From the IMG/VR virus record IMGVR_UViG_3300045988_156369: 64,000 bases of DNA; one strand, 5' to 3'. Source of the DNA: a virus. Below the pieces are notes generated by a model. That model saw only the letters and a list, made by a program, of their open reading frames with translations, ran no database searches and was not told the DNA's origin. The stretch's first letter is position 1. Each line of letters opens with the position of its first letter. Below, piece by piece: positions 171-25,305 of the stretch. The position numbers were made by a program, and so were the translations under genes.

Positions 171-276
171 ATACTAAGGGGCTTCCCAGTGGAGCTTTCA
201 CACCACTTGAGCATTTTTCATTTCTGACTGAGGGATACCCCTACCCTCTCAGATCATCCGGGAGCGACCCGGCCAC

Positions 277-881: not shown

Positions 882-885
882 ATAG

Positions 886-1087
886 TAACAGAATAAATTC
901 ATGATGGAGACGACACCCCGAAATATGGTACATATATTTGTACTGGTGACGGGTACATGGATTCAAATTCAAACACCTGGATATGACCGAGGTGTGGAGC
1001 CGTTTGCTACCCGGTGCGGCCGCAGGTTGGCCGTGCCGGTGTGACGGGACTTGACGGTGTGAAACCAAAAATGAAGTTATTCTGTTA
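886..1087 (-). ncRNA. Structured RNA element, copy E (IR-closed, conserved hairpin), filling the tRNA-Gly/tRNA-Thr spacer
   Basis: 11-bp terminal inverted repeat (886-896 TAACAGAATAA, 1077-1087 TTATTCTGTTA). Hairpin 973-995 is ACACCU-C-GG-UCAUAU-CC-AGGUGU in minus sense, followed by UUGAAUUUGAA and CUCCAU. No ORF. Confidence 0.6.
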
Positions 1088-12029: not shown

Positions 12030-12043
12030 GGGGGGTGGTCCTT

Positions 12044-12361
12044 TCAGGGGGTGGTGAGAGGCTGGATGAGGGAATCAAAAGAGATGGAGGAAATGGGGAT
12101 GGACTGTGGGGAGGAAGAATAACCGACAAGAGCACAGATAGGGAAGTAAAAAGGGACACCATAAAAAGAATACGATCGTTTATCAGATGTATGGTGAACC
12201 TCTTTTACAACATAAGAGTTACCGCAGAATCGTTTCATGCTTTTCAAAATGGTGATACGCGGAGTTTTAATTTCGCCACTTTCATTCAAACCGTATTCTT
12301 CTGCCATGTCATCCCATGTACGGATGGTGACGATATCATCGGGCTGAGGGTTGAAATTCAT
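12044..12361 (-). CDS. SFDDLL-tail small protein paralog 1
   Basis: N-terminus DDIVTIRTWDDMAEEYG; C-terminus ISFDSLIQPLTTP. Confidence 0.75.
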   Translation of the reverse strand: MNFNPQPDDIVTIRTWDDMAEEYGLNESGEIKTPRITILKSMKRFCGNSYVVKEVHHTSDKRSYSFYGVPFYFPICALVGYSSSPQSIPISSISFDSLIQPLTTP

Positions 12362-12657
12362 AGAGTGGCTCCTTTCAGAAGGTCATCAAAGGTGAGAGAG
12401 GATTCAAAGACGGGTAACACAAGAGAACAGACAGGAAAATCATAGTTTACATCCGCAAAAGAGCACCAGGAGCCAACAGCGGTAGTGGTTACACGTTCAA
12501 CAGTGTAGAAATGACCGCAATATTGTTTCATACTTTGAAAGATGGCGATAGGAAGCGTTGGGATATCCCCATAGGAATCAGTGCCAAACTCTTTTACCAT
12601 ATCATCCCAGGAGCGAATCATAACAAAATCACCGATTTGAGGAAAATACGAACTCAT
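12358..12657 (-). CDS. SFDDLL-tail small protein paralog 2
   Basis: GDFVMIRSWDDMVKEFG; tail LTFDDLLKGATL. 4-nt overlap with its neighbour. Confidence 0.78.
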   Translation of the reverse strand: MSSYFPQIGDFVMIRSWDDMVKEFGTDSYGDIPTLPIAIFQSMKQYCGHFYTVERVTTTAVGSWCSFADVNYDFPVCSLVLPVFESSLTFDDLLKGATL

Positions 12658-12974
12658 TATGTGGCTCCTTTCATAAGATCATCGAAGGAAATGGTAGAAG
12701 TAGGAACAGATGGGGCTAAAACGAACATGTCTTCAGTAAAAGGGAACCAGCTGCCGTTTAATCCATAAATCCAATGTTTATCGTTAATGGATGGCCGGAC
12801 ATATTCAACTTTGAAAGAGCGACCGCAAAACTGTTTCATATTATAGTCAAGGGTTACATAAGGGGTTTTAATCCCTAGTTGTTCACCCAGGCTGCCATAT
12901 TGAGAGAGCATATCATCCCAAGCGCGGATGGTGACCGTATCACCAGGCTGAAATCTGTGAGGATAAGACGGCAT
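12657..12974 (-). CDS. SFDDLL-tail small protein paralog 3
   Basis: GDTVTIRAWDDMLSQYG; tail ISFDDLMKGAT. Confidence 0.78.
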   Translation of the reverse strand: MPSYPHRFQPGDTVTIRAWDDMLSQYGSLGEQLGIKTPYVTLDYNMKQFCGRSFKVEYVRPSINDKHWIYGLNGSWFPFTEDMFVLAPSVPTSTISFDDLMKGAT

Positions 12975-12977
12975 AGG

Positions 12978-13382
12978 TTAAGCACCACCTTGAAGTAAAT
13001 CATCGAAGGAAATGGAAGAGGGAGGAGTAGGCACGGGGGAGGATTCCATAAGAGATTGGTAGGCGGCATAAATTTTTGAAGCGTAATACAGTTTGTCATC
13101 CTGGGTGGTGAACTGAAAGAAATTTTGATTGCAGGTCCCCGTGGCAGTGACGATTTGAGGGGAATCAAAATCACCGCGGGAAACAGCAGTAACGTCAGAA
13201 ACAGGACAGAAAATGGAACGACTCCATGATAAGTTCATACGGTAAGCGATGGATCGTTTGCGTAGATCAGAGCTTTGGAGAAAATCATCATAGAGAGCTT
13301 TGCATTGAGCGAAGGAGGGGAAGAGAATTTCTTGGTTAGGAAGGATGGTGGGGTAAAAAAGTTCGATTGTTTCGGGAATCAA
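12978..13382 (-). CDS. SFDDLL-tail small protein paralog 4 (divergent N-terminal domain)
   Basis: Tail SSISFDDLLQGGA. Confidence 0.72.
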   Translation of the reverse strand: MIPETIELFYPTILPNQEILFPSFAQCKALYDDFLQSSDLRKRSIAYRMNLSWSRSIFCPVSDVTAVSRGDFDSPQIVTATGTCNQNFFQFTTQDDKLYYASKIYAAYQSLMESSPVPTPPSSISFDDLLQGGA

Positions 13383-13714
13383 AAGAAGTCACCACCTGAG
13401 AGAAGAGAATCAAAGGAGAGAGAAGAGGGAGGAACGGATGTGGGTTTGGATTGTTCGAACATGGGAGAAGAAAAAATATTAGAAATACCGTCGAGATAAT
13501 AAGAATCAAAAGTTGGAGGTGCATGGCGGCGTACATAAACAATGGGGAGTGTTTGTCCGCAATATTTTTTCATTTGCTCTGTGAAAAATTTTGGGACTTT
13601 GATTTCACCAGATAAGTTCAGACCAAATTCAGCGGCCATATCATCCCACTGACGGATGGTAACTTTATCTCCGACGTTGTAGGTAGGATAATCGGCAGGG
13701 TTAAGAGGTTTCAT
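13379..13714 (-). CDS. SFDDLL-tail small protein paralog 5
   Basis: GDKVTIRQWDDMAAEFG; tail LSFDSLLSGGDFF. Confidence 0.78.
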   Translation of the reverse strand: MKPLNPADYPTYNVGDKVTIRQWDDMAAEFGLNLSGEIKVPKFFTEQMKKYCGQTLPIVYVRRHAPPTFDSYYLDGISNIFSSPMFEQSKPTSVPPSSLSFDSLLSGGDFF

Positions 13715-14100
13715 TGAGGGAGTTCACCTCCGGCAAGGAGTTGGTCAAAAGAGATGGCGGGAGGAATGACGGAAGAGGATTCGTTAAGAGGGGCGAGCAT
13801 GGCGGGTGAGAGGAACCAGTTGTAGATTCCAAATATAGGAGGGATGTTATAAGAGAAAGAGAGAAGAGGATCATCGAACTGGAAGATACGGGGAGAAAGA
13901 TAATATTCATCATTGTCAGAATAGAAAGGTTCGTTTACGATGGTGAGAGTGGCACCGCAGAGGTATCTCATTTCGTCATGAAAGAATGTGTCATCCGGCA
14001 AGTGTATGCCACCAATGGAATCATAATGGCCGATGGAATTGAGTTCATCCCAGGAGAGGATGCGGACGTGTTGGCCGAGGTAGAGGTCTTGGAAGGTCAT
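13711..14100 (-). CDS. SFDDLL-tail small protein paralog 6
   Basis: VRILSWDELNS; tail ISFDQLLAGGELPQ. Confidence 0.75.
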   Translation of the reverse strand: MTFQDLYLGQHVRILSWDELNSIGHYDSIGGIHLPDDTFFHDEMRYLCGATLTIVNEPFYSDNDEYYLSPRIFQFDDPLLSFSYNIPPIFGIYNWFLSPAMLAPLNESSSVIPPAISFDQLLAGGELPQ

Positions 14101-14112
14101 AAAAAAATCACC

Positions 14113-14805
14113 TCATTGATTGGACTGGGGTTTGGGTGCCCAGGAATGGGGCTGGCCATCCAGGATTTGCATTTCCTTGGCGATGGAAGCGATAACGAAA
14201 TCAAGAGAGATGGCCTGACCGGTAGTCTGGCGGCCCCAGTAGGATTTGCCCCAGCAATCAAGAACGACTTCACCGCGGGCTTTGAGCTTTTCACCGAACC
14301 AGTTGGAGACCGCCCACCATTCAAAGATTTCGGGCGGGGTGGTATCGAGGTCATCGTATTCATCGTCGCTGTAGACAGCACCGCAACACTGGCAGACATG
14401 AACAGTTTCGGACTCGCAGCAGGCACGGGCTTGGGTGAGAGTGGGATAAGTGAGGCCGCAGACGGGGCAGATATAGGGGTCCTCAGGTTCCGGGACGTCA
14501 GAATCATAATCCGGGTTTTGGAATTTGGAATCATCGAGGTCCGTGACGTCAACTTCATCAAAGTAGCTGGAATTACCGCACTCGGAGCAGGTTTGGGAGG
14601 AAGCATCACAGATAGCGGATTCGTAATCGGATTCATCGAAAGGAGGATCTTCCGGGATACTAGCGTCATAAGCGAGGGCGGAGAGGATAAAATCCATTTC
14701 CTGGTTCATATTGCAGAAGACTTCGCGGTTGATGAGCTGGTCGAGAATTTTTTGGTTGGGGGTGGAATCGGAAGAATATTCTTTGTCATTAACGGTGTAG
14801 AACAT
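14113..14805 (-). CDS. hypothetical acidic, Cys-cluster protein (230 aa)
   Basis: CSECG, CPVCG and CQCCG motifs. RBS present. Confidence 0.7.
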   Translation of the reverse strand: MFYTVNDKEYSSDSTPNQKILDQLINREVFCNMNQEMDFILSALAYDASIPEDPPFDESDYESAICDASSQTCSECGNSSYFDEVDVTDLDDSKFQNPDYDSDVPEPEDPYICPVCGLTYPTLTQARACCESETVHVCQCCGAVYSDDEYDDLDTTPPEIFEWWAVSNWFGEKLKARGEVVLDCWGKSYWGRQTTGQAISLDFVIASIAKEMQILDGQPHSWAPKPQSNQ

Positions 14806-14837
14806 GGGATCAACTTCCTTTTTTGTATGTAGGGGGT

Positions 14838-15443
14838 TCAGGATTCAAAATCGGGGTGGTCGAGGGCGGTGGCGTTGGAGAAGAAGACATCAACCATATC
14901 CTGATCGGATTCGATGTTATAGCAGCCGCCGCAGGAATCGTTTTCTTCCCACTCATTGGAATCGGGGTTATACTGATAGAGGGTGAGAGTTTTTGCTTCA
15001 CCGTTGAGGTACTGCTGATAGAGTTCAAGCTCACTTTTGATTACGTTCTCAGCATGAGAGCGCCAGTCCGGGGTGGAGTGGCCGAGGTCAGCTACGTTCT
15101 GGCGGGTGCAGACGGCGAAACCGGCAAGGCCGGAATCAAAATCATCATGGAACGGCGTGGTGGAGAGGGCGATGGCGGAGTGAACGTAGGCATAGATGGG
15201 AAGCTTGACGTATTCAGATTCAATGCCGGCTTTGACATCAGGGACAAAAGCGCTGACAGGTTTATCGCCGGAGAAATAACGGTTGGGGGCGATATAGAAT
15301 GTGGAGTAGCAATCCCAATCCGTGCGGGGGTTGGGAGGGAAGAGGTCGGGTTCTTCGGAGATAAAATAAAGATCATTGCCGGATTTGGCGTAGGTGCCGG
15401 TGAGGGTTTGTTCGGTTTGAACGGGGATGGTGAGGGTGGACAT
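14838..15443 (-). CDS. hypothetical protein (201 aa)
   Basis: ORF with AAGGAGG RBS. Confidence 0.7.
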   Translation of the reverse strand: MSTLTIPVQTEQTLTGTYAKSGNDLYFISEEPDLFPPNPRTDWDCYSTFYIAPNRYFSGDKPVSAFVPDVKAGIESEYVKLPIYAYVHSAIALSTTPFHDDFDSGLAGFAVCTRQNVADLGHSTPDWRSHAENVIKSELELYQQYLNGEAKTLTLYQYNPDSNEWEENDSCGGCYNIESDQDMVDVFFSNATALDHPDFES

Positions 15444-15446
15444 ATT

Positions 15447-16850
15447 TCAAGCCTCCTTCTTGGATGCGGATTCAACTTCCGGCTTGGATGCGGCGTTAAT
15501 ATAAGTGTTGACGGCGGCATTGAAGCGATCAAACAGGACGCCGCTGTACATAACAAGGGTTTTGAGCTGCTGTGCGGTGCGGTGATAGCGATTACGGAAC
15601 TGGATATGAGCTTCGTTCCAATCGGTGTTCATGGTTTTATAGACGTTGCGGTAGGTGACGGAGAAGTTGCAGGAGGTATCATAGTAGATAGCAGCGGCCT
15701 TAGCAATTGCGGCATTGATGGCGGCAGCACGTTCATCCAAAAGGGACTGAGAAGGGGCGGGAACGGGCTGTTCATCCAGAACGGAAGTGGCCGGAGATTT
15801 GATGATGCAGGGTTCGGTTTTAATGAGGCCGAGTTCCCGCTGGACACCGAGGGGAAGCTGAGAGTTGGGGTTGGAATCGTTTTTGCGAACGTGCTTGATG
15901 ATGGCATCGTTATAGAGATCGTTCAAAATAGAATCGAAGATTTCACGGTAGGTAGTGGAGGAGCTAATAATTTGGATGGTGGAGATATAAGAAGTGCAGG
16001 CGTGAGATTTGCGGTAGTTGATGCGCTCCTGCTCCTGGACAAAACCGTAATCGCGTTTCATTTTGGCGTAGATCTGGTTGAGGATATCGCGGCGGGAGGG
16101 GTAAAGCTCCGGGGCGTTGCGGATGATTTTATCCATGGTCTGGTAGACTTCATCACGCCAGGTGACGGGGGCGGATACAGGTTTTGAGGTTACAGCAACA
16201 GAGACATTTGACTTTTGCGGGGCAGGTGCCGGGGTGGATTCGTTTTTGGGGCTGGGGGCAGGTTCATCATGGACGGCATAATCCTTGGGGGTGACGGTGA
16301 CGGGCTGCGGGGCAGGCTGCTGAGCGGGGACAGCACCGGCAAAGTGGTTGGCGAGGGCAGCGAGGGTGGAGGTCATTGTGACCATGCAGCGGGCGGTTTC
16401 GGCCTGGGTTTTGAGGGTGGAATCAACGAGGGCCTGGATGGTTTGCATAGCTACGGCGGAGGTTTGGTCCGGGGTGGCGAGAACGCTGCGGCCATGGTAA
16501 AGAGATTCCATAACGTCCCATACGAAGTCCATGAATTTATCCGCGTTGGGCTGGCGGGAGAAGCGGCAGATTTCCATAACACCGCGGAGGGTGTAGACAC
16601 GGGTATTTCGATTTACCCATCTATTTCCTTCAACACCCCCCAAAGTGAGGGTTGTTGAAAGTGGATCAAGACGGTCTTTATTTCGATCATGAATTTGCTG
16701 AATAGCATCATCAGCTTTTACATAGCCTAGTGCTTCACCAATCTGACGCCTCGTCATATAAAATTTGTTTTCAATGGCATCATCTTTATAGAAGTTGCAG
16801 GTGAGGGAGCCAAAAGGCTTTTGGGTAACGAGGGTAAGATTTTGAGTCAT
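15447..16850 (-). CDS. Bro-N/ORF6N-type antirepressor-like DNA-binding protein
   Basis: From the internal ATG at 16850 (GAAAGGAA RBS): FGSLTCNFYKDD..FYMTRRQIGEALGY...RVYTLRGVMEICRFSRQPNADKFMDFVWDV, typical of phage antirepressor N-terminal domains. Confidence 0.7.
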   Translation of the reverse strand: MTQNLTLVTQKPFGSLTCNFYKDDAIENKFYMTRRQIGEALGYVKADDAIQQIHDRNKDRLDPLSTTLTLGGVEGNRWVNRNTRVYTLRGVMEICRFSRQPNADKFMDFVWDVMESLYHGRSVLATPDQTSAVAMQTIQALVDSTLKTQAETARCMVTMTSTLAALANHFAGAVPAQQPAPQPVTVTPKDYAVHDEPAPSPKNESTPAPAPQKSNVSVAVTSKPVSAPVTWRDEVYQTMDKIIRNAPELYPSRRDILNQIYAKMKRDYGFVQEQERINYRKSHACTSYISTIQIISSSTTYREIFDSILNDLYNDAIIKHVRKNDSNPNSQLPLGVQRELGLIKTEPCIIKSPATSVLDEQPVPAPSQSLLDERAAAINAAIAKAAAIYYDTSCNFSVTYRNVYKTMNTDWNEAHIQFRNRYHRTAQQLKTLVMYSGVLFDRFNAAVNTYINAASKPEVESASKKEA

Positions 16851-16899
16851 TTTGAAAGTTCCTTTCTGTGATATGGGATAAATGGATATTGGATATTTG

Positions 16900-17055
16900 T
16901 TATGCTTTGACGGTGTTTTTGCGGGTGAGTTCGAGGACGGTGCAGAACGGGGCGAACCAGCCGCCGCCCGAATAGAAGGCGTGCGGGGTGGAGGGCTGGC
17001 ATTCATAGCAGACAGTGCCGTTGATGATAGCGAGGGTGTAGGTAAGTTTGGTCAT
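16900..17055 (-). CDS. small hypothetical protein (51 aa, below the ORF-track cutoff)
   Basis: ATG at 17055 preceded by GAAAGGATC. Translates as MTKLTYTLAIINGTVCYECQ...TVKA with stop TAA at 16900-16902. Confidence 0.45.
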   Translation of the reverse strand: MTKLTYTLAIINGTVCYECQPSTPHAFYSGGGWFAPFCTVLELTRKNTVKA

Positions 17056-17090
17056 AATGGTTGATCCTTTCTGATGGTAAAAATAGATTC

Positions 17091-17366
17091 AAAATAAAAC
17101 AGGGAACAAGCTGGTGGGAAACGGTCTTCTTGAGTGGATCGATGATTGGACTTGTGAAGAACGTATGAACGTAGTTTTGGTTTTGTGACAAGTCTTTTGA
17201 TGTCAACTCGAAACCGTATGGAGGCGCGTCGTCTGCAGACGACGCCCGTGATCCAGGAGGGGGAGGAGGTAACAAATTCGAACTCTTGGATATAACCGAA
17301 GAGTGAAAGCATGAACTGAAATATAATCAGCAAATGATTCTATACCTTGTTAGGCTGTTTTATTTT
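17091..17366 (-). ncRNA. Structured RNA element, copy A
   Basis: 12-bp perfect terminal inverted repeat (17091-17102, 17355-17366). Hairpin 17282-17304 is ACUCUU-C-GG-UUAUAU-CC-AAGAGU, then UCGAAUUUGUUACC, the C-rich run CCUCCUCCCCCUCC, and CUCCAU. Confidence 0.6.
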
Positions 17367-17432
17367 TAAGGTTGATAGTTGGGGCACGGCGGGGTGTGGT
17401 CGGCAAAATCGGCCATGGAAGCGCCGTGGTAT

Positions 17433-17792
17433 TTATGCTTGGGGATTTGCCAGTTGAGAGGTAGCTCCTTTCAATAAATCATCAAAGGAGAGAGTGGAGG
17501 CGCAGACAACTGTGGGACAAGATTGTTCAAACATGGGGAAAGTAAAAACCGCTGTGCTACCACCGAGATAATAAAAATCAAAACTCGGATGTAAAAAGGG
17601 GTCTATGCGAACAATAGGGAGTGTCTGTCCGCAATATTGTTTCATAGGCTCTGTGAACAAAGCTTGTGGGGTTTTAATGGCACCATATCTGTTCAAACCA
17701 AATTCGGACTCCATATCATCCCACTGGCGAATGGTAACTTTATCACCAATGTTGTAGGTAGGATAGTTATTGGGGTTAGGGGCAGTATTCAT
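17433..17792 (-). CDS. SFDDLL-tail small protein paralog 7
   Basis: GDKVTIRQWDDMESEFG; tail LSFDDLLKGATSQLANPQA. Confidence 0.78.
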   Translation of the reverse strand: MNTAPNPNNYPTYNIGDKVTIRQWDDMESEFGLNRYGAIKTPQALFTEPMKQYCGQTLPIVRIDPFLHPSFDFYYLGGSTAVFTFPMFEQSCPTVVCASTLSFDDLLKGATSQLANPQA

Positions 17793-17797
17793 AGTTA

Positions 17798-18187
17798 TTA
17801 GACTCCTTGAAGTAAATCATCGAAGGTAATAGAAGGGGTGGAAATACGGTTTTTGGGTTCAGGGGGGAGGGTTGCAGGGACGGGGAGGAGCATGGCGGAG
17901 GTGAAAAACCAACCGTGAGGAGAATCATCAACATTAAAGCCTGCATGAGTACACGATAAATAATCGAGAATATAAATGGGTTCATCAGGAAGATCTTTAT
18001 CATGAACGATTTTGACAACAATAAACTCTTTGCCACAGTAAGGTTTCATGTCAAGAATAAAAGAAAGTTTATTAGGATGAACAGTGATATCACCGTAAGG
18101 ATTGGAGCCGAATTCTTCCATCATATCATCCCACTGGCGGACGATGACGCGATCACCAACGTGGTAGGTGGGGTAGGGGGATGGCAT
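17798..18187 (-). CDS. SFDDLL-tail small protein paralog 8
   Basis: GDRVIVRQWDDMMEEFG; tail ITFDDLLQGV. Confidence 0.78.
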   Translation of the reverse strand: MPSPYPTYHVGDRVIVRQWDDMMEEFGSNPYGDITVHPNKLSFILDMKPYCGKEFIVVKIVHDKDLPDEPIYILDYLSCTHAGFNVDDSPHGWFFTSAMLLPVPATLPPEPKNRISTPSITFDDLLQGV

Positions 18188-18556
18188 TCAAATGCCTCCT
18201 TTCAGGAAATCGTCAAAGGAAACAGGGGAAATGGGAACCGGGGTGCCATAGGGGTGGAATTCATTGGGGGTGAAAAGAGCGGTGTTCCAAGAGAATCTGG
18301 CAGCGGCGGAGGGAGCGACAGCAGTGGAGAGATCGTAGGGTTTTAAGAAGTAAAAGTCAGAAGTGCCAAATTTACGATCAATTTGCATGATGCTGCCACA
18401 AAGAGAACGGCGTTTAGGGGACATATAATCTGCGATACCATTAGAAAGGGGATCGAGAAACAGCGCACAGCCAGCATCATTTTTGGGAAGAGCGTCAAAC
18501 TCTGCGGCAGAAATGATTTGAACGAGGGTGCCAACGGGGTAGGTGGGGAAATTCAT
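18188..18556 (-). CDS. SFDDLL-tail small protein paralog 9
   Basis: Tail VSFDDFLKGGI. Confidence 0.75.
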   Translation of the reverse strand: MNFPTYPVGTLVQIISAAEFDALPKNDAGCALFLDPLSNGIADYMSPKRRSLCGSIMQIDRKFGTSDFYFLKPYDLSTAVAPSAAARFSWNTALFTPNEFHPYGTPVPISPVSFDDFLKGGI

Positions 18557-18927
18557 TGCGCGGCTCCTTTCAACAGATCATCTAATGACATGGAAGGAAC
18601 CGGAGGCGGAGAAACGACACTCAGCAGATCCATAAGAGGGTGAAATTCAGCGGCGGAGAAGAACCAGTCATCCCAGGGGAAAACGGTTTTATCTTTAGCG
18701 AAGAAAGGAGTGAGTTTATATAGGTTTCCTACTACACCGTTTTCGGAAATGCTAGTAATGACAGCCGAACAACCGCAAATAGGAAGTTTATCTCTGTGAA
18801 AAGAATCGTACAAGCCGTAACTGGACCGAGCAAGAATAAAATTGCCGCGGTCATCCGTAGGACAGGAATAAACTTTTTCTTCGGAGATGATTTGGACAAC
18901 ATCGCCAACTTTATAGGTAGGATTCAT
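18553..18927 (-). CDS. SFDDLL-tail small protein paralog 10
   Basis: ATG at 18927 with GAAAGGAAG RBS. Tail MSLDDLLKGAAQ. Confidence 0.72.
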   Translation of the reverse strand: MNPTYKVGDVVQIISEEKVYSCPTDDRGNFILARSSYGLYDSFHRDKLPICGCSAVITSISENGVVGNLYKLTPFFAKDKTVFPWDDWFFSAAEFHPLMDLLSVVSPPPVPSMSLDDLLKGAAQ

Positions 18928-18952
18928 GGTAGGCTTCCTTTCTGTGATGGGG

Positions 18953-19249
18953 TTAGAGGTTTGCGATAAGAGAATCAAAGCTGAGATACGGAGCGGGGAT
19001 AGTGCGGGAGATCATGCTGGGCTGGATGATGTAGTAGGAATCGTTGTGAGGAAAGTAGAGGCGGAGAAGGCCGGATTTGCCAAGGATGGCAACGATCTTG
19101 CCCTGCTTGCTGAGGATAGGCTCATAGGGAAGAGAATCGGTGAGGGTGAAAGTGGTGCCGTAATCATACTGGAGGGAGCAGAGCATTTCCGGGGCGGAGA
19201 CGATCTCGACCCAGGTTCCAGGTTCATAGCCGGGGAGGAATGGGGTCAT
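18953..19249 (-). CDS. SFDDLL-tail small protein paralog 11
   Basis: Tail LSFDSLIANL. Confidence 0.7.
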   Translation of the reverse strand: MTPFLPGYEPGTWVEIVSAPEMLCSLQYDYGTTFTLTDSLPYEPILSKQGKIVAILGKSGLLRLYFPHNDSYYIIQPSMISRTIPAPYLSFDSLIANL

Positions 19250-19255
19250 GAGGAA

Positions 19256-19519
19256 TCACCTACCTTGAGAAATAAGTTCATCAAAAGAAATGGGAGAAGT
19301 GGGAAGAGGAGCGGGGGTGACGGCTTCGGGGGTATCGTCATAAGTAAGGGCAGAATGGGTGGCGACAAATGTTTTGTTATTCATACTGGGGACAATAACG
19401 GTGACATAAACGCCAGTATCAGATTGGACAAAGCCGTGGAGGGTACGATGGGCTGCGCCATGTAGCGTTATGATTTTGAAATAGACGGGAGTGCCGGGTT
19501 GAATGTAATAAGGGTCCAT
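19256..19519 (-). CDS. SFDDLL-tail small protein paralog 12
   Basis: ATG at 19519 after AGGTGA. Tail ISFDELISQGR. Confidence 0.7.
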   Translation of the reverse strand: MDPYYIQPGTPVYFKIITLHGAAHRTLHGFVQSDTGVYVTVIVPSMNNKTFVATHSALTYDDTPEAVTPAPLPTSPISFDELISQGR

Positions 19520-19537
19520 AAGAATCACCTGTATGAA

Positions 19538-19828
19538 TTAGAGGACGGAAATAATTTCATCAAAAGAAACGGTAGACGGGGGCACGGTGTTGGGGGACTT
19601 ATAGGCGAATGGATCGTTGGGGTCCTGGATTTCGGTGATATATTCATGGGGGACGTGGAAGGTGCGGGAATCATCGGTCCAGACGGTGACGCGGTTGCCG
19701 TTATCTTCTTGGACGGTGCCGGAGAGATAGATGATTTGAAATTTAGTTTTCAGGGGATTGTGATCCTGGCTGATAACTGGTCCTACGGTATAGAATTTGA
19801 CCCGTGAGCCGGGGGAGATAAGTTTCAT
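19538..19828 (-). CDS. SFDDLL-tail small protein paralog 13
   Basis: ATG at 19828 after AGGTAA. Tail VSFDEIISVL. Its C-terminal half is similar to the upstream frameshifted copy. Confidence 0.7.
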   Translation of the reverse strand: MKLISPGSRVKFYTVGPVISQDHNPLKTKFQIIYLSGTVQEDNGNRVTVWTDDSRTFHVPHEYITEIQDPNDPFAYKSPNTVPPSTVSFDEIISVL

Positions 19829-19833
19829 AAAAA

Positions 19834-20014
19834 TTACCTGCCTTGAAGGAGAGCGTCGAAAGAGATGGTTGGGGAAGATACGGGGGGTAGAGGACTTATA
19901 AGCGAGGGGATCTTTGGCATCCTGGATTTCGGTAATAACTTCATAGGGGACGTTGTAGCTGTGGGAATCGATCAAGATGGTGACGTAGTTGCCGTTATCT
20001 TGGATAAGTTTCAT
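19834..20014 (-). pseudogene. SFDDLL-tail paralog 14, frameshifted at a C6 run (sense strand)
   Basis: The N-terminal frame (MKLIQDNGNYVTILIDSHSYNVPYEVITEIQDAKDPLAYKSS) and the tail frame (PVSSPTISFDALLQGR*, stop 19834-19836) differ by one nt at the homopolymer 19882-19887. Confidence 0.6.
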
Positions 20015-20230
20015 AAAAATCACCTGAATTCATTTGAAGGGGAGGGTTCCGGGGTATTACAAGGCGCTCCAACCATTGGAATGGCCGGAGGCCCAGCGAA
20101 AGGAAAGTAAAACCATGACCGTGCGTTTACCAGGCGCACGAGCAGGGGGCGCAACGAGCTGCTAAGAAAGGAAGAAACAGCTGAAGCGCCTGGGAATGCC
20201 CCGGAACCATGGGGCGGAATGGAGAAAAAC

Positions 20231-20568
20231 AAAAATCAATTTGTGAAAGCTGATGAGAGGCAGCCACCGGACCCAGATGCTGGCCATGGCTGTTATTCTG
20301 AGTTTGATTGGTGCTTCCACCGGTGTTGCTTACTTTTTTTGTTGAAGAATAGGGCATTAGCCCATCCTTTCTGATGCGCCGCGAGGCTAGTTTCCGTGTG
20401 TATGGAAGTTCGAGACTGATGCGGTGCTTACTGCGACGCGATTGGATCACCTCCAGGGGGGTGGGACAGGGGAACAAATTCAAACCCTCGGATATGACCG
20501 GAGGGTGTTTGGCTTTGACTTGAACAGAAATCAAAACGAAACTTTACCTTTGAAACAAATTGATTTTT
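20231..20568 (-). ncRNA. Structured RNA element, copy B (starts 4 nt after the RT stop codon)
   Basis: 14-bp perfect terminal inverted repeat (20231-20244, 20555-20568). Hairpin 20481-20511 is CAAACACCCUC-C-GG-UCAUAU-CC-GAGGGUUUG, then AAUUUGUUCCCC, a C-rich run, and UUCCAU. Confidence 0.6.
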
Positions 20569-20572
20569 TGGA

Positions 20573-21763
20573 TTATGCGGTTACGCTGGGCGGGGCGAGA
20601 TCGGCCTTGATGCAGGATTCAAGGTCAAGGCCATATTTGGCGTTATACTTTTGGATGATATATTTGGTGGTATCGGGCTGGACATCCTTGAACCAGGTAA
20701 TGTTGCCCTGGAAGGACTGAAGGTCTTCATCCGGCCACTTTTTGCCCTTTTGTTTATCGCGGAAGTAGGTATCAATGGTGGCTTTGAAGATTTTATTTTT
20801 GCGGTAGCCGACTGTGATTTGGTTATCCTTATTGAGCATGACGCCAAGAATCCAGTTGCGGCCGGCGCGGGAGTGGAACTGGGTTTTCTTTTCATTGAGG
20901 GTGAAGGGGGCGTTCATTTGGGAGAGAAGCTGGACGATGAGGCGCTCGACGGCGTGATAATTGAAGATGACTTTGCAGGAGACGATGATATCATCGGCGT
21001 AGCGGGTGTAGCAGAGGCGGTCAGTGATGGGGGTTCCGTCCGGGTTATGCTTGCCGGATTCAAAATGGTTGACGGCCTTGGCGAAGGCGTGGTCAAAGGG
21101 GATCATCATGATGTTGGTGATGAGCGGGGAGATGGGGGTGCCCTGCGGCAATGCGCCGTTAAGGAAGCAGAGGTCTAGGGCTTTGAGCAACTCCGCGTGG
21201 CCGGTAGGGCTGGCGAGGATGAGGTTGAAAGGATAAATGAGTTCAAACTGGGAGAGAACAAACGCCGGCGTGGTGGAAGGGAAGAAGCCATGGAAATCAA
21301 AGTGGGCGTACCACCAGGCATTGAACTTTTGGTGACGTTTGGCGGCGGAGAGGACGCTGCGGTCCTCGACATAGGCGAAGGCGCAGGTGTGGTGGTCGGC
21401 AAACATCCAGGACTGGAAGAGAGTTTTGAGTTCCTTGAGGGCTTTCATTAAGTCGGAGTTGGGGGCATCGATCCAGCGGAGGCCGCCGGAAGCTTTGGGG
21501 ATGGAAAAATGGTTGTACAGGCTGGAACGGGGAGTGGTGAGGCGAAGGGATTCATACTGCTGATTGAACGCCTGGAGCTGGAAAATCATTTGTTCCACCT
21601 TGGTGATGCGCATGATGCGGGGAGGAACTTTATTGCAGATGACGGTACGGGTAGCACCGTGGCCGCCGGTGGAAAGGTTGGCGAGGTTGAAATCCCCGCG
21701 AAGGAGTTCTTCAAACGTCATTTCCCGGAAACGTTCCGGGCAGTTATAAGTGATGTAAACCAT
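20573..21763 (-). CDS. stand-alone reverse transcriptase (retron/Abi/UG-like)
   Basis: RT motifs IPKASGGLRWIDAP, HFDFHGFFPS, LPQGTPISPLITN, YTRYADDIIV, NEKKTQF, ILGVML. AAGGAG RBS. No RNase H, endonuclease or maturase extension visible. Confidence 0.88.
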   Translation of the reverse strand: MVYITYNCPERFREMTFEELLRGDFNLANLSTGGHGATRTVICNKVPPRIMRITKVEQMIFQLQAFNQQYESLRLTTPRSSLYNHFSIPKASGGLRWIDAPNSDLMKALKELKTLFQSWMFADHHTCAFAYVEDRSVLSAAKRHQKFNAWWYAHFDFHGFFPSTTPAFVLSQFELIYPFNLILASPTGHAELLKALDLCFLNGALPQGTPISPLITNIMMIPFDHAFAKAVNHFESGKHNPDGTPITDRLCYTRYADDIIVSCKVIFNYHAVERLIVQLLSQMNAPFTLNEKKTQFHSRAGRNWILGVMLNKDNQITVGYRKNKIFKATIDTYFRDKQKGKKWPDEDLQSFQGNITWFKDVQPDTTKYIIQKYNAKYGLDLESCIKADLAPPSVTA

Positions 21764-21789
21764 GTGAGTGCTCCTTATGTGAGGGTTAT

Positions 21790-22124
21790 GTTTGTGTTCT
21801 GATGGAGATGTGGGCTGCCGCGAGTTTCCCGTTCGTCGGGCCGGGAGGCGTATCGTTGCTCTGGTTGATGCGACCGTAGCCTAATGTGGATTCGACCTTT
21901 GCGATACCTGCACCTTTGCTGGCCGAAATGTGTGGATTTTTCTTAGAGTTTTTCTACCAATCGGTGCTTGACACAAGGCTCGGATACTGCTATGGTGGGG
22001 TCTTGAGTCAGCCCCGGGCTGGCCAGGATCATGGAGGAGGGTGGGTCGGGGTAACAAATTCGTGCTCTTGGATATGACCGAAGAGCACGAAGCGAAAAAA
22101 AAGCTTACAGTATACAACACAAAC
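21790..22124 (-). ncRNA. Structured RNA element, copy C (ends 26 nt upstream of the RT start codon)
   Basis: 9-bp terminal inverted repeat (21790-21798, 22116-22124). Hairpin 22059-22091 is UUCGUGCUCUU-C-GG-UCAUAU-CC-AAGAGCACGAA, then UUUGUUACCCC, the C-rich run CCCACCCUCCUCCAU. Confidence 0.55.
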
Positions 22125-22154
22125 GAAATTTAATGAAACGCTAAGACGACAGGG

Positions 22155-22838
22155 TTACAGACCGAGGAATGCGGATTCACCCTGGAGATTGAAGGGGGCA
22201 GAGAGGCCGGTGTGGATCAGCTCGCCTTTTTTGATGAAGTTTTGGAAGTTGGTGACGGTATAGCAGGCGGCAACGCGAACCGTGGGGGCAACACCGAGGG
22301 TAGTGCCGCAGGCCGAAACAGGGACCTGGGCGGTGGCTTCGGCGTGAGTAAAGTTCATTGTGGCGCGGAATTCCTTGACCTGTTTGGGGTCCGACCAATC
22401 GGCAGCGTAGAGCTGGGCGTCAAAGAGGGCGGTGCGGACATCAAACATGGCTTTAATGAAGGTGTTAAAGCGGTTGGCATCCACGATTTTCTGGCGGATC
22501 TCGATATTATCTACGGCGAGAAAAACGTAACCGGAGAGGGGCTGGCCGTTCCAGCCGGAGGGTTCCAGACGGATATCATTTTTGGCTTCCGGGTTGATGG
22601 CACAGAGGATATCGCGGAGGGCTTCCACTTTGGGCTGGCCGACCTGGGGATCAAAGAACATCTGGTTGACGATGTTTTTCTTTTCCACCGTATCAAAATC
22701 ATAAAGGGTGAAGTTGGTCAGGCCATAGCGGGCAAGAAGCTCCGCGATGGTGGAGCCGACCGAACCGCAGCCAATGATGTGGATGCGGCCTTTGACATCA
22801 TGCGGGGAGAAGACATCCAGGCTTTTGGCAAGATTCAT
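22155..22838 (-). CDS. ThiF/MoeB/E1-like adenylyltransferase (PRTRC ThiF-like)
   Basis: Rossmann loop HIIGCGSVGSTIAELLARYG followed by LYDFDTVEKKNIVNQ, as in ThiF/E1 enzymes. 4-nt overlap with the JAB gene. Confidence 0.78.
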   Translation of the reverse strand: MNLAKSLDVFSPHDVKGRIHIIGCGSVGSTIAELLARYGLTNFTLYDFDTVEKKNIVNQMFFDPQVGQPKVEALRDILCAINPEAKNDIRLEPSGWNGQPLSGYVFLAVDNIEIRQKIVDANRFNTFIKAMFDVRTALFDAQLYAADWSDPKQVKEFRATMNFTHAEATAQVPVSACGTTLGVAPTVRVAACYTVTNFQNFIKKGELIHTGLSAPFNLQGESAFLGL

Positions 22839-23599
22839 AAGGCACCTCCGTTGGTGAGATAATCGTAATAGGTGGGGTAGTGGTCGTAATAATTGCCGTC
22901 ATCGTCCGTCCAACAGCGGGCGGCGTTATCCCAGAAGACGTGGGGTGCGGTGCCACCGGTGGGCTTGACGGGAGGGTTCGTTTTGGAATAGATGGGCGGA
23001 GCCTTGGTGACAAGGGACTGAGCGGTGGCGGCAAAATCGGAGAGAGTATCGGTGTAGGTAACAGAGATATCGTCTTTATCGTAGATTTTGTTGGCGGCGT
23101 AGTCATACAGGCGGGCGGTGAACTCGCCACGCTTGTTCCAGATCATGAAGAGGTAGAAATCATTGCCCTTGAGCTTATTGACAATTTTGGACTCGTTTTC
23201 GTCATCAACGCCGGAAGGGGAAGTGGACATGTTGACGTGGCTGTGGGCCTGGTAGCGGATGTTGTTGAAGATTTCATCGGGCTGGGAGACCAGCCAGTCG
23301 TTGTATTTATCCTGGTCGGTTTCGACGGTGACACCAGTGACCTGCTGGGGGTAGACGAGGATATCATAGATTTCATACTCGGTGGGGGAGAGCTGGCGCA
23401 TGAGGCCGTGCCAGGCGACCTCGGAAGTGAAATCATCAATGAGGCGGGACTGTTTGGCCCAGGCATCGGCGGTAAAATTGATGTTGATTTTATCTTTTGC
23501 CTTAGTTTTTGTGAGCTTGACAGCGCCGGTGAGGAGCTGCTGACGATAGAGTTCGATGGCGGCATCCAGAGCGGTCTGATCAATACGGATAACTTGCAT
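22835..23599 (-). CDS. JAB/MPN (JAMM) metalloprotease-like protein
   Basis: Complete JAMM signature: upstream Glu (SEVAWHG) and HSHVNMSTSPSGVDD, which fits HxH-x7-S-xx-D. Confidence 0.78.
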   Translation of the reverse strand: MQVIRIDQTALDAAIELYRQQLLTGAVKLTKTKAKDKININFTADAWAKQSRLIDDFTSEVAWHGLMRQLSPTEYEIYDILVYPQQVTGVTVETDQDKYNDWLVSQPDEIFNNIRYQAHSHVNMSTSPSGVDDENESKIVNKLKGNDFYLFMIWNKRGEFTARLYDYAANKIYDKDDISVTYTDTLSDFAATAQSLVTKAPPIYSKTNPPVKPTGGTAPHVFWDNAARCWTDDDGNYYDHYPTYYDYLTNGGAL

Positions 23600-23601
23600 G
23601 G

Positions 23602-24942
23602 TTATTCTCCTTCCTTAACGGAATCGTTTGCGGATTTGAGCTGTTCAATGGCCTGCTTGGGGGTGATGGATTCACCGGCGGCGGTAAGGATGACGGGGAT
23701 ATCATTGTGATAGGCGTCGGCGAAATCATCAAAGAAATATTTGGTGGAGATTGTTTCGACGAGGTTCATGCTGCTGGCGCTCTGCTGACAGATAGCAATG
23801 GCGGCAATAAAATCTCGGCGATCCTCGGCATCCTCCAGCATGGGTTCATAGTTACCGAGGCAGGAGTGATGATTGATGTGAGGGTTGGGAACAGCCTGAA
23901 TGACGTTCATATTGATCGCATCGGACATAGCTGTGACATGGCAGTTGTAATTAAGCCTATAGGTGGCAGCGAGTTTGATTTTGAAGATGTGGTCAATGAA
24001 CACAGCCCGGAAAAGGATACGGACATCGTGTTCTTCTTCATCGGTAAGATCCTGATAGGGGCGGTCACTGTTGAAGATAAAGGTTTCGACATCATCCGGG
24101 TCATAGTTGGAGAGGAATGTGGTGATGACGAGGAGAAGCGATCCATCGACAGCACCAACGGAGATACCCTTTTGAGTGTGGAGATAATCCTTGAGTTCCG
24201 TGATAAAGGTGGATTCATCTTTGGAGTCAAGGCCGGTCAGCTCACAGTTGGTGTTGGTGATGTTGGTAAAAATTTCCGAGATACGGGCGCGGGTTTCTTT
24301 CAGATCACGGTAAAGACTTTCAATTGACCGCTTGAGATCCGCTTTACGGCGGTCAATGGTACCTTTGAAGAGGGATTCGATCGCTTTATCTACGGCCCTG
24401 GAGGTCAGATCGGTTTTGTTATAAAGGGCTTCCGCCATCCGGGCGAGGGCTTCCGAGCCAGTATCCGGGGTGGAGAGGGCGCGAAGGTAAGCGAGTTCAT
24501 CGGAGGTGAGGGGGTGGTCCTTGAAAAGCCAGGGCAGCAGGCGGGGCATGGCCGAGGCGACACGGTTGTAAAAAACACTGCTGTAGAGGCCGCCGTCGCG
24601 CTGGAACTGGACGATGGTGATACGGGCGGCTGCATCCTGATAAACTTTGTATTTATCAGAGAGATAAGCGCCGATATCCTTAACTTCCTGGATGGAATCG
24701 GGGATGGAGGCTTTATCGGTGACGAAGAACAAACGGGATTCATTCGGGTTAGTGGAAGGCTGGAGGCCGGAATCATCGCCAAGGATGGCAAGGGTATTGC
24801 CTGCGGTGAGGCGGGAGTAGACCGTGCAGGCCAGAACTTTGGTGAAAATTGTTTTGAAAGAGGAGCGGCAGGGGGTGTTGTCCTGCCATGTGATGGTGGG
24901 CGACATGTAATTGAGAATATCGGTGTAATTGGGGAGTGGCAT
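23602..24942 (-). CDS. hypothetical protein of the E1/JAB cassette (446 aa)
   Basis: Long ORF abutting the JAB gene. Near the C-terminus, NPHINHHSCLG faintly resembles the HPN..C active-site stretch of E2/UBC folds. That resemblance is a weak inference only. Confidence 0.65.
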   Translation of the reverse strand: MPLPNYTDILNYMSPTITWQDNTPCRSSFKTIFTKVLACTVYSRLTAGNTLAILGDDSGLQPSTNPNESRLFFVTDKASIPDSIQEVKDIGAYLSDKYKVYQDAAARITIVQFQRDGGLYSSVFYNRVASAMPRLLPWLFKDHPLTSDELAYLRALSTPDTGSEALARMAEALYNKTDLTSRAVDKAIESLFKGTIDRRKADLKRSIESLYRDLKETRARISEIFTNITNTNCELTGLDSKDESTFITELKDYLHTQKGISVGAVDGSLLLVITTFLSNYDPDDVETFIFNSDRPYQDLTDEEEHDVRILFRAVFIDHIFKIKLAATYRLNYNCHVTAMSDAINMNVIQAVPNPHINHHSCLGNYEPMLEDAEDRRDFIAAIAICQQSASSMNLVETISTKYFFDDFADAYHNDIPVILTAAGESITPKQAIEQLKSANDSVKEGE

Positions 24943-25077: not shown

Positions 25078-25305
25078 TCAGGCGTTATCCTGCTTGGCAA
25101 TGTTGACCAGGTAGCACTTTTCCGCGATACCGAAGTCTGCGAAGGTCTTATCCAGGTCGCCTGCGGCCAGAGAGGAGCCATCCAGCTTGGTCTGGCCGGT
25201 AGTGTAATCGACATCATGAGCTTCCAGGACGGAGCGCAGGGTGGTGTTGGGGTCAACGGGGTAGGTGTTGCGGTGCAGGTTATCGACGATAGTGACGTTA
25301 ATCAT
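25078..25305 (-). CDS. small protein (75 aa), candidate ubiquitin-like/beta-grasp component
   Basis: Its size, alternating beta-like pattern, and position in an E1/JAB operon are comparable to PRTRC protein C. It ends ...AKQDNA with no terminal GG. Confidence 0.5.
   Translation of the reverse strand: MINVTIVDNLHRNTYPVDPNTTLRSVLEAHDVDYTTGQTKLDGSSLAAGDLDKTFADFGIAEKCYLVNIAKQDNA

What the first reader, a model, noticed from the sequence alone, without database searches (positions are those of the whole stretch)
20231..22124. Phage-borne stand-alone RT sandwiched between two copies of the RNA element (retron-like geometry with multiple candidate templates)
**The RT.** The 396-aa ORF carries all RT motifs: IPKASGGLRWIDAP, HFDFHGFFPS, LPQGTPISPLITN, YTRYADDIIV, NEKKTQF and ILGVML. 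It has no RNase H, endonuclease, maturase or Cas domain. Motif 4 is the QG type (retron, Abi, group II) rather than the DGR type.

**Flanking elements.** The 3' arm of element C ends 26 nt upstream of the RT ATG. That is the position of the a2 repeat of a retron msr-msd. Element B begins 4 nt after the RT stop codon. Two further copies, A and E, lie 3 kb and 19 kb away.

**Why it is unusual.** One RT with four structurally equivalent RNAs in a virus is not an arrangement I know. The RNAs could be alternative templates or primers, or decoys. The RT is also wedged between an E1/JAB cassette and the tail-motif gene array in one transcriptional direction.
Basis: partly seen in the sequence, partly recalled or inferred. 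Interest (0 to 1): 0.85.

Follow-up and report, generated by a model that had tools for sequence, protein, structure and literature searches.

The report
Phage retron-like RT with variable RNAs
A gut phage carries a retron-type reverse transcriptase flanked by copies of a previously uncatalogued structured RNA whose conserved handle is joined to a fast-changing middle part, all within a conserved ubiquitin-like gene cassette, and this arrangement recurs across many uncultivated phages.

Summary
**Observation.** It is confirmed. A 396-aa RT lies on the minus strand at 20573-21763. It sits between two copies of a 200-340 nt structured element. Two more copies lie 3 kb and 19 kb away.

**The RT.** HMMs, PDB sequence search and predicted fold all place it nearest retron RTs. 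It is not a group II intron, DGR or DRT RT.

**The RNA family.**
- Each element has a 9-16 bp terminal closing stem and a G after the 5' arm in most copies.
- Two hairpins, P1 and P2, follow; both covary.
- An AAYUUG tail, a variable payload and an "AG" before the 3' arm complete the element.
- Rfam has no match.

**Recurrence.** In 62 related phage RT loci, 56 carry elements and 41 show the same sandwich. All 140 model hits lie on the RT strand.

**New findings.**
- The RT is not stand-alone. A collinear module (75-aa protein, 446-aa protein, JAB, E1, RT) is homologous in 14 lineages.
- The payloads are hypervariable. They differ by 29-42% pairwise, against about 9% at RT third codon positions. 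The bounds fall exactly at the conserved ends.

**Reading.** The best reading is a retron-like system with several template RNAs. Reverse transcription itself is inferred, not shown.

The parts
20573..21763 (-). Retron-type reverse transcriptase, 396 aa, with the YADD catalytic motif. About 70 N-terminal residues have no counterpart in known retron RTs.
   Evidence: - Translation.
- Pfam RVT_1, 2.8e-14.
- PADLOC best hit RT_II-A, 1.5e-44.
- NCBIfam retron St85 family, 168.5 bits, below the 235-bit cutoff.
- Nearest PDB sequences are retron RTs.
- AF2 model has pLDDT 87. Its top 11 Foldseek hits are retron RTs, 3.6e-17 to 1.5e-12.
21790..22124 (-). Element C, upstream of the RT.
- 5' arm 22116-22124; junction G at 22115.
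- P1 22090-22106; P2 22061-22089.
- Tail GAAUUUGUUACCCCGACCCACCC, to about 22039.
- Hypervariable payload, about 21813-22038.
- Conserved CACAUCUCCAUCAG, 21799-21812.
- 3' arm 21790-21798.
   Evidence: (62.7 bits).
20231..20568 (-). Element B, starting 4 nt after the RT stop codon.
- Outer 5' arm 20555-20568.
- Inner stem AAAG 20548-20551; junction G at 20547.
- Core motif 20475-20499.
- 3' arm 20231-20244.
   Evidence: - Fold z-score -4.5.
- Also.
- Covariance model hit, 73.8 bits.
- Hypervariable payload.
17091..17366 (-). Element A, 3 kb downstream.
- Outer 5' arm 17355-17366.
- Inner stem CAAG 17346-17349; junction G at 17345.
- Core motif 17273-17297.
- 3' arm 17091-17102.
   Evidence: (65.3 bits).
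886..1087 (-). Element E, a short-payload copy. It lies exactly between tRNA-Gly (1088-1162) and tRNA-Thr (807-881).
- 5' arm 1071-1087.
- Core motif 964-988.
- 3' arm 886-902.
- It has no G directly after the 5' arm.
   Evidence: fold z-score -3.7; 62.5 bits.
22155..22838 (-). E1-like adenylyltransferase of the ThiF family, 227 aa, immediately upstream of element C.
   Evidence: - Pfam ThiF, 1.7e-22.
- PADLOC E1-E2 (Cap2-type) models, up to 1.3e-17, E1 part only.
- Homologous and collinear in 14 lineages at 43-64% identity.
22835..23599 (-). JAB/MPN+ metallopeptidase, 254 aa, with the JAMM motif HSHVNMSTSPSGVD.
   Evidence: - Motif read in the translation.
- PADLOC JAB, 6.4e-4.
- Collinear homologues.
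23602..24942 (-). Conserved 446-aa protein of unknown fold. It is the second gene of the module.
   Evidence: - No Pfam, PHROG, NCBIfam or PADLOC hit.
- AF2 model has pLDDT 83 and pTM 0.46.
- No PDB fold match at E <= 0.001.
- Homologues in 10 of 14 lineages examined.
25078..25305 (-). Conserved 75-aa protein ending in K-x-D-N-A. It is a candidate ubiquitin-like partner of the E1/JAB pair; this is inferred.
   Evidence: -; 40-65% identity in 7 lineages.
- Pfam gives only insignificant hits, including TUG-UBL1 at E = 0.14.

Best explanation
This is a phage-borne, retron-like reverse-transcriptase system with several cognate non-coding RNAs.

**Shown.**
- The RT belongs to the retron lineage.
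- It is flanked, on its own strand, by members of one structured RNA family.
- Each RNA has a closing stem that brings its two ends together and two covarying hairpins (P1, P2) that form a conserved 5' handle. A G follows the 5' arm in nearly every copy; element E is the window's exception.
- Each RNA also has a payload that differs between copies and between closely related phages.
- The RT is the last gene of a conserved module: 75-aa protein, 446-aa protein, JAB, E1, RT.

**Inferred mechanism.**
- The RNAs are cut out of polycistronic transcripts. Copy E would be released by tRNA-processing enzymes.
- The RT recognises the P1/P2 handle.
- The closing stem places the junction G next to the 3' end of the payload, as a1/a2 does in a retron.
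- The RT copies the payload into single-stranded DNA. This would give up to four different RT-DNAs per infection.
- These RT-RNA-DNA complexes act with the ubiquitin-like/E1/JAB/446-aa proteins in phage-host or phage-phage conflict. An arms race of that kind would explain why the payloads change so fast.
For: **RT identity.**
- All top PADLOC hits are retron RT models; the best is RT_II-A at 1.5e-44.
- The best NCBIfam model is retron St85.
- All 11 PDB sequence hits are retron RTs.
- The AF2 model's top 11 structural neighbours are retron RTs.

**The RNA is real.**
- P2 is 99.1% paired across 95 distinct sequences. Seven of its 8 pairs carry changes on both sides.
- The covariation score is 0.71, against 0.26 in shuffles; 0 of 500 shuffles reach it.
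- Window-type P2 is 100% paired, with 3 compensatory pairs.
- P1 often ends in GNRA or UUCG loops.
- G-U pairs, and 144 of 144 copies on the gene strand, point to RNA rather than a DNA site.

**Retron-like geometry.**
- A contiguous stem of at least 6 bp, anchored at the nucleotide before the conserved G, occurs in 137 of 140 elements. Its modal length is 9-11 bp, against 4-5 bp in the control.
- G follows the 5' arm in 139 of 140 elements.
- 'AG' precedes the 3' arm in 109 of 137.
- The order is arm, G, two hairpins, variable region, arm. As I recall it, this matches the msr-msd order of retron Ec86.

**Link between RNA and RT.**
- 56 of 62 RT loci carry elements, and 41 are sandwiches.
- The upstream copy starts a median 350 nt before the ATG. 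Downstream copies start 9-22 nt after the stop.
- Copies within one genome usually share the apical P2 sequence, which changes along with the RT lineage.
- In the most distant group the element sits in front of the whole cassette.

**Payload.** Pairwise differences are 29-42% in the payload, 5-6% in the handle and about 9% at RT third codon positions. Diversity peaks sit only on payloads, in three independent phage groups.

**Other.** An RNase H gene overlaps the RT stop codon in L072 and L073.
Against: - No cDNA, branch point or expression data exist. Templating is inferred from geometry only.
- No conserved msd-like hairpin was found in the payload.
- Copy E lacks a G directly after its 5' arm. 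One of 33 close relatives has U in place of G in copy C.
- The RT scores below the curated cutoffs of every named retron family. It also carries an N-terminal extension of about 70 residues that retron RTs lack.
- No known retron effector is present.
- The L069-type covariance model does not detect the window copies. Their common origin therefore rests on shared architecture and on intermediate forms in L145 and L146.
- Rfam's families, including the retron msr family that I recall it holds, give no hit.
Confidence: 0.55

Rival explanations
1. The RNAs are stable phage non-coding RNAs that work as RNA and are never reverse-transcribed. They could be scaffolds, guides or decoys, perhaps bound by the RT or by the 446-aa/E1/JAB proteins. 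On this reading, the closing stem and the handle serve only stability and protein binding.
For: - Closing stems are common in stable RNAs and are not specific to retrons.
- Copies sit between tRNAs, where processing would release them.
- No msd-like hairpin is conserved.
- In the L044 group the element precedes the whole cassette rather than the RT.
Against: - This does not explain why an intact RT, with YADD and all motifs invariant across the family, is kept next to the RNAs in 56 of 62 loci.
- It does not explain the near-universal junction G and 'AG'.
- It does not explain the RNase H gene fused to the RT operon in one lineage.
Confidence: 0.2
2. This is a DGR-like or self-diversifying retroelement. 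The RT makes error-prone cDNA of the payload. That cDNA then replaces either the payload itself or a variable repeat elsewhere in the 147-kb genome, and this creates the hypervariability.
For: - The hypervariable segment is bounded sharply by invariant sequence on both sides and lies next to an RT.
- The module is phage-borne, as many DGRs are.
Against: - The RT is retron-type. A DGR RT structure ranks only 35th among structural neighbours.
- Variability shows no adenine bias. By consensus base it is A 0.20, C 0.25, G 0.25, T 0.35.
- No payload-like second copy exists in the 64-kb window.
- No Avd-like gene was seen.
- Payload divergence between phages ranges continuously up to 54%. That also fits old alleles kept by selection or moved by recombination.
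Confidence: 0.1
3. The elements are cis-acting leaders, terminators or promoters for the flanking genes. Their position around the RT would then be incidental to operon punctuation.
For: - They are always intergenic and in the gene orientation.
- P2 followed by a U-containing tail looks superficially like a terminator.
Against: - The scan found no significant promoter or terminator signal at the elements.
- Tandem copies follow one another without an intervening gene.
- One copy lies between two tRNAs.
- A 10-bp stem that encloses about 280 nt, joined to a hypervariable interior, is not the anatomy of a leader.
Confidence: 0.05
4. The elements are non-autonomous retroelements mobilised by the RT in a SINE/LINE-like relationship. 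Retrotransposition would then explain the multiple copies.
For: Several copies share an RT-proximal handle and sit at scattered sites.
Against: - The copies occupy the same positions in all close relatives.
- Their interiors are unrelated to one another.
- No target-site duplications or poly-A-like tails were seen.
Confidence: 0.04

Closest known systems
Bacterial retrons (type II-A St85/Ec86; type I-A Ec78/Ec83)
   Same: - The RT lineage matches by HMM, PDB sequence search and predicted fold.
- The ncRNA lies on the same strand next to the RT.
- Terminal inverted repeats close the RNA, and a G follows the 5' repeat.
- Two 5' hairpins precede a variable 3' part.
   Different: - The system is encoded by 140-150 kb uncultivated phages rather than by cells or P2/P4-type prophages.
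- Each genome carries up to four or more RNAs, often in tandem after the RT.
- The payload is 100-250 nt and has no conserved hairpin.
- The RT has an extra 70-residue N-terminus and scores below the family cutoffs.
- The partner genes are a 75-aa protein, a 446-aa protein, JAB and E1, not a known retron effector.
- msDNA has not been shown.
Diversity-generating retroelements
   Same: A phage-borne RT lies next to a sharply bounded hypervariable segment.
   Different: - The RT belongs to a different clade.
- There is no TR/VR pair in the window and no adenine-specific pattern.
- There is no Avd-like gene.
- The variable segment is non-coding.
DRT2 and other class 2 UG RT-ncRNA defence systems
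   Same: A single RT works with a structured ncRNA of a few hundred nucleotides encoded beside it. In those systems the RNA serves as the template.
   Different: - The NCBIfam Drt2 model scores 39 bits against a 390-bit cutoff.
- The DRT2 structure ranks 20th among structural neighbours.
- No stop-free frame exists in concatenated elements.
Type II CBASS Cap2/Cap3 and Bil-type bacterial ubiquitin-like systems
   Same: An E1-type adenylyltransferase and a JAB peptidase are encoded beside a nucleotide polymerase or transferase. The E1 matches the PADLOC Cap2-type models.
   Different: - No E2 domain and no CD-NTase are present.
- The module is phage-encoded.
- The candidate ubiquitin-like protein ends in D-N-A rather than Gly.
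Large phage ncRNAs found near tRNA genes (GOLLD, ROOL)
   Same: These are structured non-coding RNAs in phage genomes, and some copies lie beside tRNA genes.
   Different: - Rfam gives no match.
- The elements are smaller, multicopy and have a hypervariable interior.
- They are linked to an RT.

Membership tests
Retron | The RT belongs to the retron RT clade. | tested here: met
   - The best HMMs are all retron RT models.
- All PDB sequence hits are retron RTs.
- The top 11 fold matches are retron RTs.
- Caveat: the score is below every curated family cutoff, and no rooted phylogeny was made.
Retron | The ncRNA is encoded beside the RT on the same strand and is closed by inverted repeats (a1/a2). 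| tested here: met
   - All four window copies have closing stems of 9-16 bp.
- 137 of 140 related elements have a stem of at least 6 bp.
- All copies are on the RT strand.
Retron | A conserved branching G lies at the end of the 5' repeat. | tested here: inconclusive
   - G is present in 139 of 140 relatives and in window copies C, B and A.
- G is absent at that position in copy E.
- Whether it forms a branch cannot be read from sequence.
Retron | The msd region forms a stable hairpin. | tested here: not met
   No conserved helix was found inside the payload. The poor alignment of the hypervariable region limits this test.
Retron | 2'-5' branched RNA-DNA (msDNA) is produced. | not testable with these tools
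   This needs nucleic-acid analysis of cells that express the RT and the RNA.
Retron | A known type-specific effector is associated (NDT, ATPase/HNH, Toprim, TIR, protease and so on). | tested here: not met
   - The neighbours are JAB, E1, a 446-aa protein of unknown fold and a 75-aa protein.
- No PADLOC retron effector model hit these neighbours.
Rfam families (4227 models, Rfam 15; the retron msr family is among them as I recall) | A match to any of the library's covariance models. | tested here: not met
   - No family reached its gathering score on any of the four elements in the whole window.
- For 16800-22400, which holds copies A, B and C, no relevant hit appeared at E <= 10 either.
Diversity-generating retroelement | A template repeat is paired with a variable repeat, and differences fall at adenines. 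| tested here: not met
   - The payloads have no second copy in the window.
- Variability shows no A bias.
- The rest of the genome, outside the window, was not searched.
Diversity-generating retroelement | A DGR-clade RT with an Avd accessory gene. | tested here: not met
   - The retron models dominate.
- A DGR RT structure ranks 35th.
- No Avd-like neighbour was found.
Group II intron | Ribozyme domains around an RT that carries a maturase (X) domain. | tested here: not met
   - No group II intron family was hit in Rfam.
- TIGR04416 scores 57 bits against a 300-bit cutoff.
- Pfam finds RVT_1 only.
DRT2 (UG2) | A Drt2-family RT, with an ncRNA whose concatenated cDNA carries a stop-free reading frame. 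| tested here: not met
   - Drt2 scores 39 bits against a 390-bit cutoff.
- Every frame of the concatenated elements has stop codons.
Type II CBASS (Cap2/Cap3) | An E1-E2 fusion and a JAB peptidase beside a CD-NTase and an effector. | tested here: not met
   - E1 and JAB are present.
- Only the E1 part of the Cap2 models is matched.
- No CD-NTase was found.

The most novel reading that the evidence does not exclude
This is a distinct class of phage retroelement system. A retron-lineage RT, coupled to a dedicated ubiquitin-like/E1/JAB conjugation cassette, turns an array of interchangeable, fast-evolving template RNAs into a repertoire of DNA products. Alternatively, it continually rewrites those templates. 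On this reading the system is a variable arm of phage-host or phage-phage conflict and is widespread in gut phages of Clostridia.
Probability: 0.3. Interest if true: 0.95.

Novelty: new variant of a known kind. Interest (0 to 1): 0.85.

Why it matters
**What is new.**
- Retrons are known as bacterial defence systems with one RT, one ncRNA and one effector.
- Here a large RT family, with 388 clusters at 50% identity reaching E <= 1e-30, sits in virus genomes.
- It comes with arrays of cognate RNAs whose interiors evolve several times faster than synonymous sites.
- It is locked into a ubiquitin-like/E1/JAB cassette.

**If the payloads are templates.**
- Phages would be making several programmable single-stranded DNAs during infection.
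- That would be a new viral use of reverse transcription.
- It might also supply compact multi-template RT-DNA tools.

**What holds either way.**
- The RNA family is absent from Rfam and has strong covariation.
- The link between an RT and E1/JAB enzymes was not found in the literature searched.
- Both are directly testable.

Tried and rejected
**Alternative identities for the RT or element.**
- Group II intron: no intron RNA families were found and the maturase model scores weakly.
- DGR: blastn of each element against the window found only the shared core, no VR-like copy, and no adenine bias.
- DRT2-like never-ending ORF: all frames of concatenated elements have stop codons.
- tRNA primer-binding site: no complementarity between the elements and the 3' ends of the four phage tRNAs, with up to 3 mismatches in 16 nt.
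- Promoter or terminator punctuation: the scan found nothing above the shuffled expectation at the elements.

**Structure inside the payload.**
- A helix between the AAYUUG tail and the payload is only marginally better than shuffled tails (-12.6 versus -11.0 kcal/mol) and its position is inconsistent.
- RNAalifold and a compatibility scan found no conserved structure inside the payload.

**One model for both subtypes.** The model built from L069-type elements finds nothing in the window, even with filters off. The two subtypes are linked only by architecture and by intermediates.

**Neighbouring proteins.**
- The 446-aa protein was modelled and compared with the PDB. No match reached E <= 0.001.
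- Pfam scans of the 75-aa protein gave nothing significant.

**Other searches.**
- No GenBank phage record resembles the locus.
- Five literature searches found no description of this RT family, RNA or cassette.
Full report
**1.

Pfam finds only RVT_1, over residues 88-299.

The core motif GGTYATATCC-N8-GAATTTG occurs exactly four times, always on the minus strand. Chance predicts 0.31 matches. A covariance model of the window-type 5' domain scores the four sites at 62-74 bits, and nothing else exceeds 9 bits.

Each copy is closed by its own long-range stem, 9 to 16 bp long and different in sequence each time. The elements span:
- C: 21790-22124
- B: 20231-20568
- A: 17091-17366
- E: 886-1087

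The 3' arm of C ends 26 nt before the RT ATG, with the AAGGAG ribosome-binding site in between. B starts 4 nt after the stop codon. The finding's coordinates cover exactly B, the RT and C.

**2. The RT is retron-type.**

- All leading PADLOC hits are retron RT models; the best is RT_II-A at 1.5e-44.
- The best NCBIfam model is the retron St85 family, at 168.5 bits, below its 235-bit cutoff. The group II intron model scores 57 of 300 bits and Drt2 scores 39 of 390.
- All eleven PDB sequence hits are retron RTs.
- An AlphaFold model (pLDDT 87, pTM 0.83) has retron RTs as its eleven best structural neighbours, at 3.6e-17 to 1.5e-12. A group II RT ranks 12th, DRT2 20th and a DGR RT 35th.
- Alignments to retron RTs start at about residue 53-80. 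The first 60-70 residues, which are conserved within this family, are therefore an addition.
- The family is large. An exhaustive search of 1.84 billion cluster representatives gives 388 representatives at E <= 1e-30.
- Members come from contigs of 60-225 kb, and a few are labelled Clostridia or Oscillospiraceae MAGs.
- No GenBank phage resembles the locus.

**3. The elements are one structured RNA family.**

I fetched 146 related loci. The common anatomy on the RT strand is:
- the 5' arm;
- a G, then a few bases (often AUA);
- P1, a short hairpin that often ends in GNRA or UUCG loops;
- P2, made of five pairs, a bulged base, two or three pairs and a loop;
- a tail containing AAYUUG;
- a variable payload;
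- a short motif ending in AG;
- the 3' arm.

*Covariation.* A model built from 36 diverse 5' domains found 140 matches in 72 loci, all on the RT strand. On these matches:
- P2 is 99.1% paired, and seven of its eight pairs carry changes on both sides.
- P1 also covaries.
- The covariation score is 0.71, against 0.26 in shuffles; none of 500 shuffles reaches it. Slid controls give at most 0.21.
- Window-type P2 is 100% paired, with three compensatory pairs.

*Closing stem and junction.*
- A contiguous stem anchored at the base before the conserved G is at least 6 bp long in 137 of 140 elements.
- Its usual length is 9-11 bp, against 4-5 bp for a displaced control.
- It spans 181-480 nt, with a median of 280.
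- G follows the 5' arm in 139 of 140 elements.
- AG precedes the 3' arm in 109 of 137.
- The arms covary (UGUAAU/AUUACA, UGCAAU/AUUGCA, UGUAAC/GUUACA, UACAAU/AUUGUA and others).

*Limits.*
- Rfam has no match.
- The L069-type model does not detect the window copies. Their membership rests on identical architecture and on intermediate forms in L145 and L146.

**4. The RNA and the RT belong together.**

- Of 62 RT loci of the L069-type relatives, 56 carry at least one element close by. Forty-one have copies on both sides, and 33 have one copy upstream and two downstream.
- The upstream copy starts a median 350 nt before the ATG. Downstream copies start 9-22 nt after the stop.
- RT relatives at 62-66% identity keep the window-type motif on both sides.
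- Copies in one genome usually share the apical P2 sequence, and this sequence changes with the RT lineage. That pattern is what recognition by a genome-encoded protein would produce.
- In the most distant group (RT 37% identical), the RT directly follows the E1 gene and a full element sits in front of the whole cassette.

**5. The RT is not stand-alone.**

- The 254-aa neighbour carries the JAMM motif HSHVNMSTSPSGVD and weakly matches PADLOC JAB models.
- The 227-aa neighbour is a ThiF-type E1. It matches only the E1 part of the Cap2-type models.
- A 446-aa protein precedes them. Its model (pLDDT 83) has no PDB fold match.
- Before that lies a 75-aa protein whose K-x-D-N-A C-terminus is conserved. 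I take it as a candidate ubiquitin-like partner. This is only an inference, because Pfam finds nothing significant.
- tblastn shows the five genes homologous and collinear in all 14 lineages examined, wherever the fetched flank reaches far enough. Identities are E1 43-64%, JAB 31-51%, 446-aa protein 19-31%, 75-aa protein 40-65% and RT 37-66%.

**6. The payloads are hypervariable.**

I compared the window with 32 relatives whose RTs are 96-99% identical.

| Region | Mean pairwise difference |
|---|---|
| Element C handle | 5.7% |
| Element B handle | 5.3% |
| Element C payload | 42% |
| Element B payload | 29% |
| RT codon positions 1, 2, 3 | 1.7%, 1.3%, 9% |

- The alignment shows invariant sequence up to GAATTTGTTACCCCGACCCACCC. 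Invariant sequence resumes at CCATCTCCCATCAG, and scattered substitutions and small indels lie between the two.
- Along 13 kb, diversity jumps from 0.01-0.05 in the cassette and the RT to 0.26-0.40 on payload C, 0.29 on payload B and 0.26 on payload A.
- The same peaks appear in two other phage groups.
- There is no adenine bias, and transitions roughly equal transversions.
- No helix inside the payload is conserved.
- The payloads of the four copies are unrelated to each other and to anything else in the window.

**7. Further points.**

- Copy E begins at the base after tRNA-Gly and ends 4 nt before tRNA-Thr. tRNA processing would therefore release it with its closing stem intact. Similar tRNA-flanked copies occur in L044 and L146.
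- An RNase H gene overlaps the RT stop codon in L072 and L073.
- There is no tRNA primer-binding site.
- Concatenated elements have no stop-free frame.
- No promoter or terminator signal was found at the elements.

**8. Interpretation.**

The anatomy has the same order as a retron msr-msd: arm, G, two hairpins, variable part, arm. The enzyme is of retron lineage. The most likely mechanism is that the RT binds the P1/P2 handle and copies the payload into DNA, starting from the junction.

That step is inferred. The absent msd hairpin, the deviant copy E, the novel partner genes and the sub-cutoff HMM scores keep this from being filed as a retron.

The hypervariability fits three possibilities: selection in an arms race, exchange of alleles, or RT-linked rewriting. 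The data here cannot separate them.

The rival readings are an RNA-only function, DGR-like diversification, cis-regulation and SINE-like mobility. Each is less well supported, for the reasons given under it.

**9. Novelty.**

Five literature searches found no description of this RT family, its RNA or its link to E1/JAB. Two papers were checked and neither covers it.

I rate this a new variant of a known kind. There is a real chance that it is a separate class.

Noticed in passing
window 54062-54136 (+): A RAGATH-18 RNA (RF03064) scores 72.5 bits, against a gathering score of 44.9. It is a second structured RNA in this phage and is unrelated to the elements studied.
   Followed up: no
window 78-1162 (-): A cluster of four tRNA genes: Ile(tat), Ser(gct), Thr(tgt) and Gly(tcc). 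Element E fills the Gly-Thr spacer exactly.
   Followed up: partly
window 25078-25305 (-): A conserved 75-aa protein ends in K-x-D-N-A and lies upstream of the 446-aa/JAB/E1 genes. It is a candidate ubiquitin-like substrate of the E1. In L072 the ORF runs 29 residues past D-N-A, as if it needs trimming.
   Followed up: partly
L072 7144-7593; L073 7126-7575: A 149-aa RNase H gene overlaps the stop codon of the RT homologue in this lineage only.
   Followed up: no
L146 9000-10346: A second RVT_1 gene (448 aa) lies 2 kb downstream of the RT homologue in a 101-kb contig.
   Followed up: no
window about 12000-20000 (-): An array of small paralogous genes with repeated gene junctions (repeat families D1-D11). 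Among close relatives its diversity is itself 0.1-0.35. None of these genes has a family match.
   Followed up: no
window 15447-17006 (-): A 519-aa protein with a Bro-N / anti-repressor-like domain is encoded directly after element A.
   Followed up: no
L069 9779-15281: In the 47%-identity relatives, the RT/element block is followed by a metallophosphatase, tRNAs, RtcB and a DNA ligase. This looks like an RNA-repair neighbourhood.
   Followed up: no
L007, element C junction (alignment): One of the 32 close relatives has U instead of G directly after the 5' arm of element C. It is a natural variant at the proposed priming position.
   Followed up: no
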